Assembly (NCBI GenBank): GCA_000004695.1
Contig: CM000153.2
Span: 3,168,001 to 3,232,000 of the forward strand
DNA: 64,000 nt
Direction: 5' to 3'
DNA from: Dictyostelium discoideum
Lineage: Eukaryota
In this document: piece by piece, positions 26,807 through 30,752 of the stretch
Numbering within the stretch: the first letter of the stretch is position 1
How the letters are laid out: each line of letters opens with the position of its first letter
Program-made: the position numbers and the translations under genes
Notes under the pieces: model-generated
Database searches by the model: none
The model's input: the letters and a program-made list of their open reading frames with translations, nothing else
What the model was told of the DNA's origin: nothing

Positions 26807-29134
26807 ATGTCACATGAAGATAGAGGTGGTGACTACTATCCAATGATGGACGATCCAGAGGATAGAAATTTTATACAAGCAAAATATCCAAACTCAACAG
26901 GTCATATGTCAAGTGGTGGTGGTAGTAATCATATGTCATTTGATGATAACCATGGTATAGAAATGTTAAGAGATGATGAACATTCTCTTTTACATGAATC
27001 ACCTGTGTCAATTCCAGCAATTCACAATTTAGATAGTTTTTTAACAGATGTTTACAATTATTTTCGTGGTAAAGGTTTTATGTGTATATTTTTTAATGAC
27101 CTTTTCGAATTAGTGTATGTATATATATATATATAAAAATAGTTAAAATAAAAAATACTAATTATTATTATTTTTTAGTTCATCATTATTTGTTGTTTTA
27201 TTTTTCACATTTTTAGTATGTTTTGTAGATTATAGTAAATTATTTTCAGAGCAGATGCCTCCACCAGCATTAAGAGAGTCTGTCAATTTTTCAGCACCAA
27301 TACCAATTTGGTTAATGGTATTTTTAGTGATATTTTCATTATATTGGTTAAGTAAATTATTTTCATTCTTTTCTAGTATTAAAACCAATTGGGAAATTAG
27401 TAGTTTTTATAAAAACACTTTAAAGATTAATGAAGATGATATTCAAACAATAGAATGGAGAGAAGTTGTTTCAAAGATCGTTTTAGTACCAAGACTATGC
27501 ATTGTCAAGGAGAATATGAACGCTTTAGATATTGCAAATAGAATTATGAGAAAAGAAAACTATATAATTGGTTTAATCAATCAAAGAATTTTAAATTTAT
27601 CAATACCTTTCCCATTCCTTAGAAATTTAACTTTTATAACTAAAACTTTAGAATGGAGTTTAATGTATTCTTTATTTAATTATATTTTTGATGAAAATGG
27701 TATTATTAAAAGTGAATTTCAAGATCCAACTCAAAGAAAAAGATTATCAAGAGGGTAAATTAATTATAAAAAAAAAAAAAAAAATTAAATTATTTTAAAT
27801 TCTAATTTTATTTTAATTTTTTATTTTAGATTATCACGTAGATTTATGACAATTGGTATATTAGGTTTATTTACAACACCATTTATATTCTTTTTCTTAT
27901 TAATAAACTTTTTCTTTGAATATGCTGAAGAATTAAAGAATAGACCAGGTTCATTATTTAGTAGAGAATGGTCACCTTTGGCACGTTGGGAATTTAGAGA
28001 ATTAAATGAGTTACCTCATTATTTTCAAAATAGATTAAATCTTAGTTACTCTCATGCTAATCAATATGTTGAGAGTTTTCCATCACAAATGTTATCAACA
28101 ATTGCAAAATTCATTAGTTTCTTATTTGGTTCAGTTTTGGCAGTTTTCATTGTTTTGGGTATTGTCAGTGATCACTTTATAATGAATTATCAAATCTTTG
28201 ATAGAACCCCAATTTGGTATATTGGTATTTTAGGTACAATCGTTGCAATTACTCGTTCATTGATTGTTGATGAGAATCAAGTTTTTCAACCAGCTAAACA
28301 TATGGCAAGAACTGTTCAAAACACTCATTATCTTCCAATGAGTTGGGTCGGTAAAACTCATACTCATAAGGTACGTGACGAATTTTTGGTACTCTTTGAA
28401 TATAGAATCGTTGATTTCGTTAGGGATATCTTTTCAGTTCTCTTTACACCATTCATTTTAATATTTTCTTTACCAAAATCTTCACAAGCCATCATTGACT
28501 TTTTTGGAAACAATACAGTGGTTTTAGAAGGTGTTGGTCCAATTTGTCAATTGGGTGATTTTTCAAACATTAGAAAATTGGGTGATAATTCATTTGGTTC
28601 ATTAAATCATTCTCAAAATAAAATTAGTTTAACAAATAATGCAAAATTAGAGAAATCAATTATAAACTTTAAATGTTTAAATCCAGAATGGAATACTGAT
28701 AATAATGAATTACTTCAAAATCTTAATGAATTTTCAAAGATAAAGAATAATAATAATAATAATAATAATAATGGTAGCAATAATCATATTGGTAATCATT
28801 CTCAACTTCCAACAACTTCAGTAGATGATTTCCAATTTATTCATGATAGTCATTATATTCCTCATGAAATTATTGATGCCGTTTTGGGTACACATCATCA
28901 TTCTCAACAATCCAATAACAATGCTCCAAGATTTAAAACTGGAAGAGTCGACCAAAATATTTTAAACGCTGTCAACGATGTAAGTTTAACTTTTTTAAAA
29001 AAAAATTAACAAAATTATATATATAATAAATATTTATTAACTTTTTTTTTTTTTTTTTTTTTTTATAGCTCCATCAATCATTTTATGAATCCCAATATAA
29101 ACATAAAAATGATAACTTTGTAAATTCAATTTAG
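26807..29134 (+). CDS. atg9: Autophagy protein Atg9. Four exons: 26807..27114, 27177..27754, 27829..28979 and 29069..29134. There is an apparent 1-nt frame problem inside exon 2 at about 27232-27254.
   Basis: The translation is collinear with human ATG9A. 'GFMCIFFNDLFELV|SSLFVVLFFTFLVCFVDYSKL' matches 'GFACMLIGEIFELMQFLFVVAFTTFLVSCVDYDIL'. 'RLSRG|LSRRFMTIGILGLFTTPFIFFF' matches 'RLSNRILWIGIANFLLCPLILIW'. 'VLFEYRIVDFVRDIFSVLFTPFILIFSLPKSSQAIIDFFGNNTVVLEGVGPICQLGDF' matches 'VFILEELLSPIVTPLILIFCLRPRALEIIDFFRNFTVEVVGVGDTCSFAQMD'. The total is about 700 aa. Confidence 0.85.
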
Positions 29135-29398
29135 ATTAATAAATAATATATAAAAACATTTATAATTACTTTCAGATTATTTAAAAAAAAAAAAATTATT
29201 TCATTTTATTCATTTCCATGTTTTTTCGTTAATATTAATGGAATTTTATTATCTCTTTTATTAATATTATTATTATTTAATACGATTATAATATTACAAT
29301 AAAAAAAAAAAAAATACTACTTTATTAAATGTTTTTTTTTTTTTTTGTTTTATTTGGTTTTTTTTTTTTTTTTTATTTTTTATTTTTTATTTGTATTA

Positions 29399-30752
29399 TT
29401 ATAATATTTTTGCTGTAACATCATTGTCAAGATCAGGTTCCATTAATAAAGAAAATTCTTTCGCTAATTTTAATTCACCTCCAACAGATTCATCGAAATT
29501 GTATTGCATATAAAGACTATCAGCTGTTAAAACCATGGCAGTTTTATTATTTTGCATTAGAGCACAAATACTTGGAATACCGGGTGGAATTTTAATGTGT
29601 GCAAAATCTCTTGATGGTTCCCAAACTTGACTAATTACTTCTGGTAAATAAGAACTCATTTTTGAAGTTAATCCACCAAAATTTAAACCCATCATACCTC
29701 CACTCGGTGATGAGGATGGTTGTGCTTGATGAAAAGATGAAGAATTTGAAGAACTGAAATCAATTTTAAATATATGAATTGTACCAGTATCACTCGAAAC
29801 GCACAAATATCTACCATCCAAACTAAATGTCATACTATGAATGATTGCAGGTATTGAACCACGTCTAAATGATAATGATTTATTGGCATAAGGTAAGGCA
29901 AATACACGAATAACCGTACCTTTATCACTTGCTGTTGCCAATAATGTACCATCCTGACTTAATGCTAATGCTGAAATTTGACTCTTATGCGCTTGAATTA
30001 AATTTACTGTCTCTAATGTTAATACATCCATCACTAAAATATTACCATTGTTTTGACTCGCTGGATAAACTATATAATTGGTATTTGAGGGTGATAATGC
30101 ACATAATCCTTTTGGATTTGATGCTATCTCTCTTGTCTCTAATAATTTCATATTATTTATATCATAAATATGTATTTTTGTTTCCATAATAACTACAATT
30201 CTAAATTATTATTATTATTATTATTATTATTATTTATTATTATTACTACTATTAATAATTGTTTGAACCTCTAATTATAATAAATTTAACACCTATCTAT
30301 TTATTTATTTTACAATACCTTTTTCTATTCATTTTTACTGATAAAATCGCTGTTACAAAATTTAAATCGCAAATTGGAATATTATTTTTTATATTATTAA
30401 TTAATAACCTTCTTTGTGATGTATTTCCATCACCTGATCCAACAATTGATACTAAACTAGTTGAAAATAACATTTCAACCAATCCTGCTCCACCATTTGC
30501 TATAAATTATTCAATAATAATTGTTTTTTTTTTTTTTTTTTTTTATACTTTGTTAGAATCTTTTTACTTTTTTTAAAAAAAATAAAATAATATTGCTATT
30601 TACATATTTTACCTACATTGACTATAATATAATGTATATGGATCAGAATTGAAAATTTTATAACCTTCTGGTGTACCAACTGCAATACAACTAAAATCTT
30701 GATTAAAATTTAAAAATAATATACCTTCATTGAATTTACCTCCAACATTCAT
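29399..30752 (-). CDS. atg18: Atg18/WIPI-family PROPPIN (WD40 beta-propeller with FRRG PI3P-binding motif). Three exons: 30752..30617, 30499..30319 and 30200..29399.
   Basis: Exon 1 is 'MNVGGKFNEGILFLNFNQDFSCIAVGTPEGYKIFNSDPYTLYYSQ'. Exon 2 is '...GLVEMLFSTSLVSIVGSGDGNTSQRRLLINNIKNNIPICDLNFVTAILSVKMNRKR'. Exon 3 is 'IVVIMETKIHIYDINNMKLLETREIASNPKGLCAL...[36 protein letters not shown]...SLSFRRGSIPAIIHSMTFSLDGRYLCVSSDTGTIHIFKI'. This matches WIPI1/2 throughout ('[23 protein letters not shown]', '[30 protein letters not shown]'). The spliced length is about 372 aa. Confidence 0.85.

What the first reader, a model, noticed from the sequence alone, without database searches (positions are those of the whole stretch)
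26807..30752. atg9 and atg18 (WIPI) lie tail-to-tail, 264 bp apart
Two core autophagy genes whose products cooperate at the phagophore are immediate convergent neighbours, with their stop codons at 29134 and 29399. Atg9 vesicles and the Atg2–Atg18 complex work together there. Both assignments rest on long collinear alignments with human ATG9A and WIPI1/2, including the FRRG motif. Neighbouring of functionally coupled genes is uncommon in eukaryotes, so it is worth asking whether the pairing is conserved or co-regulated. Overlapping 3' UTRs would be one mechanism.
Basis: partly seen in the sequence, partly recalled or inferred. Interest (0 to 1): 0.6.

Follow-up and report, generated by a model that had tools for sequence, protein, structure and literature searches.

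The report
Neighbouring atg9 and atg18 genes
Two well-known autophagy genes of the social amoeba Dictyostelium discoideum do sit tail-to-tail 264 bases apart, but the pairing exists only in D. discoideum and its closest relatives and looks like an incidental by-product of a chromosome rearrangement rather than a functional gene cluster.

Summary
The + strand carries a four-exon atg9 gene (26807-29134, 699 aa). The - strand carries a three-exon atg18 gene (30752-29399, 372 aa). Their stop codons are 264 bp apart. Both proteins are identical to the deposited D. discoideum AX4 entries ATG9_DICDI (Q54NA3) and ATG18_DICDI (Q54NA2). They hit Pfam ATG9 (578 bits) and PROPPIN (205 bits), and FRRG is present. 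These are known, studied genes.

The suggestion that the pairing is conserved or co-regulated is not supported. The pair is adjacent only in the tight D. discoideum clade (D. cf. discoideum, D. firmibasis, D. dimigraforme), where chromosomes are collinear anyway. It is absent within 10 kb in D. purpureum, Polysphondylium violaceum, Tieghemostelium, Acytostelium, Heterostelium and Cavenderia.

Two ancestral synteny blocks end exactly at the two 3' ends, so the 264 bp spacer is a rearrangement junction. One block is ALMT, F-box/ankyrin, atg9. The other is EXOSC1, Nup85, zinc finger, atg18.

The spacer is no more conserved than introns, and its length is ordinary. Published RNA-seq shows both genes induced together with unlinked atg genes and diverging at other times. 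Transcript 3' ends could not be mapped here.

Verdict: real, already known, most likely incidental.

The parts
26807..29134 (+). atg9 (DDB_G0285323), four exons: 26807-27114, 27179-27754, 27830-28979, 29069-29134. Encodes the 699 aa ATG9 lipid scramblase homolog.
   Evidence: Spliced model with three GT..AG introns. Pfam ATG9 PF04109 at 578 bits over aa 70-539. PDB Atg9/ATG9A at E 6e-102 to 3e-87. Identical to XP_638277.1 / Q54NA3. Gene ID taken from PMC8204557.
29135..29398 (.). 264 bp convergent intergenic spacer, 9.5% G+C. It must hold both 3' UTRs and poly(A) signals, and it is the junction between two ancestral synteny blocks.
   Evidence: Synteny with P. violaceum ends at the atg9 3' end. 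Synteny with D. purpureum ends at the atg18 3' end. Conservation within the D. discoideum clade is 0.65-0.76, comparable to introns and the promoter-side intergenic region.
29138..29143 (+). AATAAA hexamer starting 4 nt after the atg9 stop codon; candidate proximal poly(A) signal. A second one lies at 29298-29303.
   Evidence: Pattern scan. Such hexamers arise by chance in 90% A+T DNA, and their use was not shown.
29372..29391 (-). Three overlapping-phase AATAAA hexamers (TTTATT on the + strand at 29372, 29379 and 29386) within 8-27 nt of the atg18 stop codon; candidate proximal poly(A) signals. Further ones lie at 29349, 29321, 29257, 29245 and 29205.
   Evidence: Pattern scan. Their use was not shown.
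29399..30752 (-). atg18 (DDB_G0285375), three exons: 30752-30617, 30499-30319, 30200-29399. Encodes the 372 aa PROPPIN of the Atg18/WIPI1-2 type.
   Evidence: Model enumeration. Pfam PROPPIN PF21032 at 205 bits, full length. PDB Atg18 at 3e-79 and WIPI2 at 2e-65, better than WIPI3 at 2e-47 and WIPI4 at 3e-39. Identical to XP_638278.1 / Q54NA2. The RNA-seq contig L011 confirms the splice junctions.
29858..29869 (-). Codons for the FRRG phosphoinositide-binding motif of Atg18 (aa 217-220).
   Evidence: the sequence reads TTTAGACGTGGT on the - strand.
17153..26806 (.). Ancestral atg9-side block: an ALMT/FUSC_2 membrane protein gene on the - strand (about 17153-20490) and a large F-box/ankyrin gene on the + strand (about 21133-25729), followed by the atg9 promoter region.
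   Evidence: tblastx collinearity with P. violaceum L010 5736-16456. Gene calls and Pfam hits in L009 and L010.
30753..37700 (.). Ancestral atg18-side block: the divergent promoter region, a small zinc-finger-like gene on the + strand (from 31348), Nup85 on the + strand (about 33400-36100) and EXOSC1 on the - strand (about 36213-36934).
   Evidence: tblastx collinearity with D. purpureum L005 3800-11280. The zinc-finger gene is also next to atg18 in P. violaceum. Pfam hits on the gene calls.

Best explanation
The locus holds two ordinary, independently transcribed core autophagy genes of Dictyostelium discoideum chromosome 4. atg9 encodes the transmembrane scramblase of Atg9 vesicles. atg18 encodes the PtdIns3P-binding PROPPIN that partners Atg2. 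[quoted passage not shown] The rearrangement fused the 3' flank of an ancestral ALMT, F-box/ankyrin, atg9 block to the 3' flank of an ancestral EXOSC1, Nup85, zinc-finger, atg18 block. Each gene keeps its own promoter on the outer side and its own poly(A) signals in the 264 bp A+T-rich spacer. Their joint induction on starvation or infection comes from the trans-acting, pathway-wide programme that also drives the unlinked atg1, atg8a/b, atg101 and sqstm1 genes. The adjacency itself is most likely neutral. What was shown here: gene identity, gene structure, phylogenetic distribution and the block junction. What is inferred: the direction and timing of the rearrangement, the independence of transcription and the neutrality of the adjacency.
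For: Identity of both genes. Adjacency with 250-260 bp spacers in D. cf. discoideum, D. firmibasis and D. dimigraforme. This carries little weight because D. firmibasis chromosome 2 is collinear with D. discoideum chromosome 4 (PMC11193728). No atg18 homolog lies within 10 kb of atg9 in T. lacteum, A. subglobosum, H. album or P. violaceum, and no atg9 homolog lies within 10 kb of atg18 in D. purpureum, P. violaceum or C. fasciculata; this rests on gene calls plus tblastn. The two genes are on contigs of different length in T. lacteum, A. subglobosum, H. album and P. violaceum. The block junction sits in the spacer: P. violaceum collinearity ends at window 28736 and D. purpureum collinearity ends at window 29438. 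The atg9-centred and atg18-centred loci of other species share no neighbours. [quoted passage not shown] Spacer conservation is like that of introns and the promoter-side intergenic region. A 264 bp spacer is ordinary against 20 other dictyostelid convergent spacers, which have a median of 123 bp and a range of 41-859 bp. Expression: in the atg9 knockout atg9 mRNA is 0.45x while atg18 is 1.39x, similar to the 1.57x seen in the unlinked atg16 knockout (PMC8204557). In M. marinum infection both genes rise at 3 hpi together with the unlinked atg8a/b, atg101, atg3 and sqstm1; later atg9 stays up while atg18 goes down (bioRxiv 10.64898/2026.09.10.750649). No other autophagy gene is found in the 64 kb window among the ORFs scanned.
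Against: Chance adjacency of two of about 15-30 core autophagy genes has an a priori probability of only about 2-7%. The two genes fall in the same induction wave early in infection. The spacer aligns with relatively few indels within the clade, although 3' UTR content would explain that. Transcript 3' ends were not mapped, so overlap of convergent transcripts cannot be excluded. The position of atg9 in D. purpureum was not found, so for that species only the atg18 side was examined.
Confidence: 0.86

Rival explanations
1. The adjacency is a selected, functionally meaningful arrangement acquired in the D. discoideum clade. Convergent transcription with overlapping 3' ends, or a shared chromatin domain, couples the expression of atg9 and atg18. 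The coupling could be positive (co-induction) or negative (transcriptional interference, or dsRNA feeding the RNAi machinery).
For: Functionally coupled partners are immediate neighbours, which has an a priori chance of about 2-7% for this pathway. Both genes are in the 3 hpi induction wave. Both are up-regulated in atg12 and atg16 mutants. The spacer is short, and distal AATAAA hexamers exist on both strands that would allow overlapping transcripts. Spacer length is stable at 250-264 bp across four species.
Against: The arrangement is absent in all six more distant dictyostelids examined, so the pathway works without it. Co-induction is shared with unlinked atg genes, and the pair diverges late in infection. 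Reducing atg9 mRNA in the knockout has no atg18 effect beyond that seen in an unlinked knockout. Spacer conservation is no better than introns or the promoter-side intergenic region. Proximal poly(A) signals sit next to both stop codons. Neither gene appears in the antisense or lncRNA tables of a strand-specific developmental transcriptome, which is a weak negative. The RNA-seq contig for atg18 does not run into atg9, which is also weak evidence because the contig ends in an assembly artefact.
Confidence: 0.07
2. The adjacency is ancestral to dictyostelids, or at least to group 4, and was lost independently in the other lineages.
For: [quoted passage not shown] The position of atg9 in D. purpureum is unknown.
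Against: It needs independent separations in D. purpureum, P. violaceum and the group 1-3 lineages. The 3' neighbours of atg9 and atg18 differ in every outgroup, and the atg9-centred and atg18-centred loci share no neighbour. A single gain in the D. discoideum clade is far more parsimonious.
Confidence: 0.04
3. The adjacency is an assembly artefact or a rearrangement specific to the laboratory strain AX4.
For: AX4 is known to carry laboratory rearrangements (mentioned in PMC11193728).
Against: The same arrangement, with the same flanking genes, is present in independent assemblies of D. cf. discoideum, D. firmibasis and D. dimigraforme. In further D. discoideum and D. citrinum assemblies both proteins lie on the same contig.
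Confidence: 0.01

Closest known systems
ATG9_DICDI (Q54NA3, DDB_G0285323), ortholog of yeast Atg9 and human ATG9A
   Same: Identical sequence. Full-length ATG9 Pfam domain. Collinear with the solved Atg9/ATG9A structures over about 500 residues. Knockout phenotypes are published (Tung 2010 and Xiong 2015, as cited in PMC8204557 and PMC6356199).
   Different: Nothing; it is the same gene. Compared with human ATG9A it has a shorter N terminus and an Asn-rich, poorly conserved C-terminal tail.
ATG18_DICDI (Q54NA2, DDB_G0285375), of the Atg18/WIPI1-WIPI2 subgroup of PROPPINs
   Same: Identical sequence. Full-length PROPPIN domain and FRRG motif. Closer to Atg18/WIPI2 than to WIPI3/WIPI4. Mutants are characterised in PMC9037511.
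   Different: Nothing; it is the same gene. D. discoideum has a second PROPPIN, Wdr45l of the WIPI3/4 type, elsewhere in the genome (PMC9037511).
Conserved functional neighbour pairs or co-expressed gene clusters in eukaryotes (for example yeast GAL1-GAL10-GAL7, DAL and fungal metabolic clusters; convergent pairs with overlapping 3' UTRs)
   Same: Two genes of one pathway are immediate neighbours in convergent orientation with a short spacer.
   Different: Adjacency is not conserved beyond very close relatives. The spacer is a synteny-block junction. Co-induction is shared with unlinked pathway members. There is no third pathway gene nearby. The comparison with the named yeast clusters rests on general knowledge and was not tested here.

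Membership tests
ATG9 (Pfam PF04109) | Full-length match to the ATG9 family profile above the gathering threshold | tested here: met
   578.4 bits against a cut-off of 27; aa 70-539 cover profile positions 4-477 of 478.
ATG9 (Pfam PF04109) | Collinear sequence similarity to experimentally solved Atg9/ATG9A scramblases | tested here: met
   7d0i Atg9 at E 6e-102; 7jlo and 6wqz ATG9A at E about 1e-87, over query residues 71-584.
ATG9 (Pfam PF04109) | Lipid scramblase activity and trafficking on Atg9 vesicles | not testable with these tools
   Biochemical property. The D. discoideum knockout literature exists (PMC8204557; bioRxiv 10.64898/2026.09.10.750649).
PROPPIN, Atg18/WIPI1-2 subgroup (Pfam PF21032) | Full-length match to the PROPPIN profile above the gathering threshold | tested here: met
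   204.7 bits against a cut-off of 30; aa 14-358 cover profile positions 5-345 of 345.
PROPPIN, Atg18/WIPI1-2 subgroup (Pfam PF21032) | FRRG phosphoinositide-binding motif | tested here: met
   FRRG at aa 217-220, aligned to the FRRG of the 5ltd Atg18 structure (alignment).
PROPPIN, Atg18/WIPI1-2 subgroup (Pfam PF21032) | Closer to Atg18/WIPI1-2 than to the WIPI3/4, Atg21 or Hsv2 subgroups | tested here: met
   Atg18 at 3e-79 and WIPI2 at 2e-65, against WIPI3 at 2e-47, WIPI4 at 3e-39, Atg21 at 2e-38 and Hsv2 at 1e-20.
Conserved or co-regulated functional gene pair | Adjacency conserved beyond what background synteny explains | tested here: not met
   Present only in the D. discoideum clade. 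Absent within 10 kb in six other dictyostelid species. The spacer is a block junction.
Conserved or co-regulated functional gene pair | Expression coupling stronger than with unlinked members of the same pathway | tested here: inconclusive
   Literature only. The pair is co-induced together with unlinked atg genes, diverges late in infection, and shows no cis effect in the atg9 knockout. No quantitative correlation analysis was possible.
Conserved or co-regulated functional gene pair | Overlapping convergent transcripts or 3' UTRs | not testable with these tools
   Only poly(A)-signal hexamers could be located. The one RNA-seq contig ends 12 nt after the atg18 stop codon in a palindromic artefact. 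No antisense RNA is listed for either gene in PMC5295588.
Conserved or co-regulated functional gene pair | Elevated sequence constraint on the shared intergenic region | tested here: not met
   Spacer identity is 0.65-0.76, against 0.37-0.84 for introns and 0.55-0.73 for the promoter-side intergenic region.

The most novel reading that the evidence does not exclude
The rearrangement that joined atg9 and atg18 in the D. discoideum clade created a convergent pair whose transcripts overlap in the 264 bp spacer. This would give a young, lineage-specific cis-regulatory link between the two partners, either transcriptional interference or sense-antisense dsRNA feeding the Dictyostelium RNAi machinery. 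Comparison with D. purpureum, where the genes are not adjacent, would then offer a natural experiment on how a new gene neighbourhood rewires the regulation of a conserved pathway.
Probability: 0.05. Interest if true: 0.4.

Novelty: already known. Interest (0 to 1): 0.1.

Why it matters
It matters little beyond housekeeping. Both genes are annotated and experimentally studied, and their adjacency can be read directly from the reference annotation, where the protein accessions XP_638277 and XP_638278 are consecutive. The useful outcome is negative. The pairing is not a conserved autophagy gene cluster. It is the junction of two older synteny blocks, so it should not be read as evidence of selection for co-regulation. 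One practical point for people who make mutants: the two genes share a 264 bp 3' spacer, so a resistance cassette inserted into one of them could in principle disturb 3'-end formation of the other. The published atg9 knockout RNA-seq shows no such effect on atg18.

Tried and rejected
(1) I looked for the D. purpureum Atg9 protein in order to centre a locus on it. No D. purpureum entry appeared among the Atg9 homologs. The 64%-identical cluster P0002 turned out to be P. violaceum-like. For D. purpureum, therefore, only the atg18 side was examined.

(2) I looked for RNA-derived contigs to read the 3' UTR ends. atg18 gave one Logan contig that stops 12 nt after the stop codon in a fold-back artefact. 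The exact atg9 product was not on record in the gene-position index. No 3'-end information was obtained.

(3) I tested a possible ancestral loose linkage through short-chain dehydrogenase genes, one next to T. lacteum atg9 and one near P. violaceum atg18. tblastx found no similarity at E<=1e-8 and >=60 bits between any atg9-centred and atg18-centred locus, so this idea was rejected.

(4) A raw blastn of whole loci against the window was swamped by AT-rich and poly-Asn low-complexity matches. I replaced it with an anchored four-species MAFFT alignment.

(5) The first literature search for developmental expression (dictyExpress plus atg18) found nothing. One query failed on syntax.

(6) tRNA and Rfam scans of the window found nothing. 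A Pfam scan of ten of the other large ORFs found no further autophagy gene.

(7) Structure prediction, fold search and the representative-protein search were not used, because sequence identity to the known proteins made them unnecessary.
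Full report
OBSERVATION. The region is extremely A+T-rich with poly-Asn coding tracts, as in Dictyostelium. Joining the ORF fragments through canonical GT..AG introns gives two genes. The + strand gene has four exons: 26807-27114, 27179-27754, 27830-28979 and 29069-29134. Its introns are 64, 75 and 89 nt and it encodes 699 aa. The - strand gene has three exons: 30752-30617, 30499-30319 and 30200-29399. It encodes 372 aa.

Both translations are identical over their whole length to deposited D. 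discoideum AX4 proteins. The first is autophagy protein 9 (XP_638277.1, EAL64736.1, UniProt Q54NA3). The second is autophagy protein 18 (XP_638278.1, EAL64762.1, UniProt Q54NA2). An intron-less RNA-seq contig (Logan SRR24091725_14892) aligns to the three atg18 exons at precisely these junctions. The literature gives the gene IDs as DDB_G0285323 for atg9 and DDB_G0285375 for atg18 (PMC8204557).

FAMILY ASSIGNMENT. The 699 aa protein matches Pfam ATG9 (PF04109) at 578 bits across the full profile. The 372 aa protein matches PROPPIN (PF21032) at 205 bits across the full profile. Among solved structures, the first protein matches Atg9 (7d0i, E 6e-102) and human ATG9A (E about 1e-87) collinearly over about 500 residues. 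The second matches Atg18 (5ltd, E 3e-79) and WIPI2 (E 2e-65). These are better than its matches to WIPI3 (2e-47), WIPI4 (3e-39), Atg21 and Hsv2. FRRG lies at aa 217-220.

IS THE PAIRING CONSERVED? I collected orthologs of both proteins and fetched their genomic surroundings.

Three close relatives have the pair tail-to-tail with the same outer neighbours. These are D. cf. discoideum (L004, spacer 250 bp), D. firmibasis (L008, 257 bp) and D. dimigraforme (L009, 260 bp). In further D. discoideum and D. citrinum assemblies both proteins lie on the same contig. These species have Atg9 and Atg18 proteins at least 90% identical to AX4. D. firmibasis chromosome 2 is reported to be collinear with D. 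discoideum chromosome 4 without major reorganisation (PMC11193728). Their agreement therefore says nothing about selection.

Beyond this clade the pairing disappears. No PROPPIN gene call or tblastn match lies within 10 kb of atg9 in Tieghemostelium lacteum, Acytostelium subglobosum, Heterostelium album or Polysphondylium violaceum. No ATG9 gene call or tblastn match lies within 10 kb of atg18 in D. purpureum, P. violaceum or Cavenderia fasciculata. For that tblastn I used five different Atg9 queries. In T. lacteum, A. subglobosum, H. album and P. violaceum the two genes are on contigs of different length, and so on different contigs.

THE SPACER IS A SYNTENY-BLOCK JUNCTION. Translated comparison shows that P. 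violaceum L010 5736-16456 is collinear with window 17153-28736. This block holds the ALMT/FUSC_2 gene, the large F-box/ankyrin gene and atg9, and it stops at the 3' end of atg9. The P. violaceum gene downstream of atg9 is a FNIP-repeat gene. D. purpureum L005 3800-11280 is collinear with window 37681-29438. This block holds EXOSC1, Nup85, a small zinc-finger-like gene and atg18, and it stops at the 3' end of atg18. The next 10 kb of the D. purpureum scaffold matches nothing in the 64 kb window. The zinc-finger/atg18 divergent pair is also present in P. violaceum, where the gene downstream of atg18 is a patatin gene. The atg9-centred and atg18-centred loci of the other species share no neighbour.

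The most parsimonious reading is a single rearrangement in the ancestor of the D. discoideum clade that fused the 3' flanks of two older blocks. Such breakpoints are expected at this evolutionary distance. [quoted passage not shown]

IS THE SPACER SPECIAL? In a four-species alignment, spacer identity to AX4 is 0.76, 0.70 and 0.65 counting all columns. Introns score 0.37-0.84 and the atg18-side promoter region scores 0.55-0.73. Exons score 0.87-1.00. The spacer shows no excess constraint.

Its length is ordinary. Twenty other convergent stop-to-stop spacers read from the dictyostelid gene-call tables range from 41 to 859 bp, with a median of 123 bp.

AATAAA hexamers lie 4 nt after the atg9 stop codon and 8-27 nt after the atg18 stop codon. 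More distal copies exist on both strands. If the proximal signals are used, the transcripts end about 230 bp apart. In 90% A+T sequence such hexamers are uninformative, so the question of overlap remains open.

CO-REGULATION. Published RNA-seq argues for pathway-wide trans regulation rather than locus-specific coupling.

- In the atg9 knockout, atg9 mRNA falls to 0.45x while atg18 is 1.39x. That is about the same as in the unlinked atg16 knockout (1.57x). In the double knockout the values are 0.34x and 0.95x (PMC8204557).
- In atg12 and atg16 mutants, atg9 and atg18 rise together with atg1, atg2, atg8a/b, atg11 and sqstm1 (PMC6356199).
- During M. marinum infection both genes belong to a 3 hpi wave that also contains atg8a/b, atg101, atg3 and sqstm1. 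Later atg9 shows the most sustained induction while atg18 becomes down-regulated (bioRxiv 10.64898/2026.09.10.750649).
- Neither gene appears in the antisense or lncRNA supplementary tables of a strand-specific developmental transcriptome. This is a weak negative (PMC5295588).

CHANCE. For 15-30 core autophagy genes among about 12,500-13,500 genes, the expected number of adjacent pairs is 0.016-0.070, so P(at least one) is about 2-7%. That is mildly unlikely for one pre-specified pathway. It is not surprising in a scan that would flag any pathway. The gene counts used here come from my general knowledge of the D. discoideum genome and its autophagy gene set.

No third autophagy gene lies among the large ORFs of the window that I scanned. 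The other genes encode a GTPase, a Myb factor, the ALMT protein, the F-box/ankyrin protein, Nup85, EXOSC1, the DNA polymerase delta catalytic subunit, a DUF4460/4461 protein, an RNB exoribonuclease and an F-box/WD40 protein. There are no tRNA or Rfam hits.

CONCLUSION. The feature is real and precisely described, but both genes are already known. The adjacency is a young, lineage-specific rearrangement junction. It shows no sign of conservation, sequence constraint or locus-specific co-regulation. The one open point is whether the convergent transcripts overlap, which needs 3'-end mapping. I put about 5% on the adjacency having acquired a cis-regulatory role in the D. discoideum clade.

Noticed in passing
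L010 10001-16848 (P. violaceum AJWJ01000114.1); corresponds to window 21133-29134: The deposited P. violaceum 'Atg9' protein (KAF2075109.1, 1,940 aa) is a fused gene model that joins the upstream F-box/ankyrin gene to atg9. In D. discoideum and its relatives these are two separate genes.
   Followed up: partly
L007 9449-10918 (C. fasciculata) and L009 10666-12131 (D. dimigraforme): atg18 is annotated as two split gene models in both assemblies: 107 + 253 aa in C. fasciculata and 252 + 158 aa in D. dimigraforme. tblastn shows one continuous ortholog. These are probably annotation errors at an intron.
   Followed up: partly
L011 1121-1132 (Logan SRR24091725_14892): The RNA-seq contig for atg18 ends in a perfect fold-back (ACAGCAAAAATATTATAATATTTTTGCTGT) 12 nt after the stop codon. 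This is an assembly artefact, so the contig carries no 3' UTR information.
   Followed up: yes
window 9886-10180, 12251-12478, 14189-14399, 21297-21546, 35554-35760, 52074-52246, 58388-58744: Trinucleotide-type low-complexity tracts, mostly poly-Asn or poly-Gln coding repeats, cross-match each other at 75-95% identity and swamp nucleotide searches. This is typical of Dictyostelium genes.
   Followed up: no
window 30753-31347 and 31348-32300: atg18 shares a 595 bp divergent promoter region with a small zinc-finger-like gene (cysteine/histidine motifs plus poly-Thr and poly-Asn tracts). This head-to-head pair is conserved in D. purpureum and P. violaceum, so it is older than the atg9-atg18 pairing.
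   Followed up: partly
L006 and L007 (P. violaceum and C. fasciculata atg18 loci): A TRM (tRNA methyltransferase) gene and a folliculin-interacting-protein (FNIP_N/M/C) gene lie near atg18 in both P. violaceum and C. fasciculata, but not in the D. discoideum window or at the D. purpureum locus. This may be an older atg18 neighbourhood that was lost in Dictyostelium proper.
   Followed up: no
window 38066-40297 (-), 48790-52428 (-), 14160-16727 (+): Other large genes in the window encode the DNA polymerase delta catalytic subunit, an RNB-domain (Dis3/RNase II-like) exoribonuclease and a protein with four Myb repeats. None is related to autophagy.
   Followed up: no
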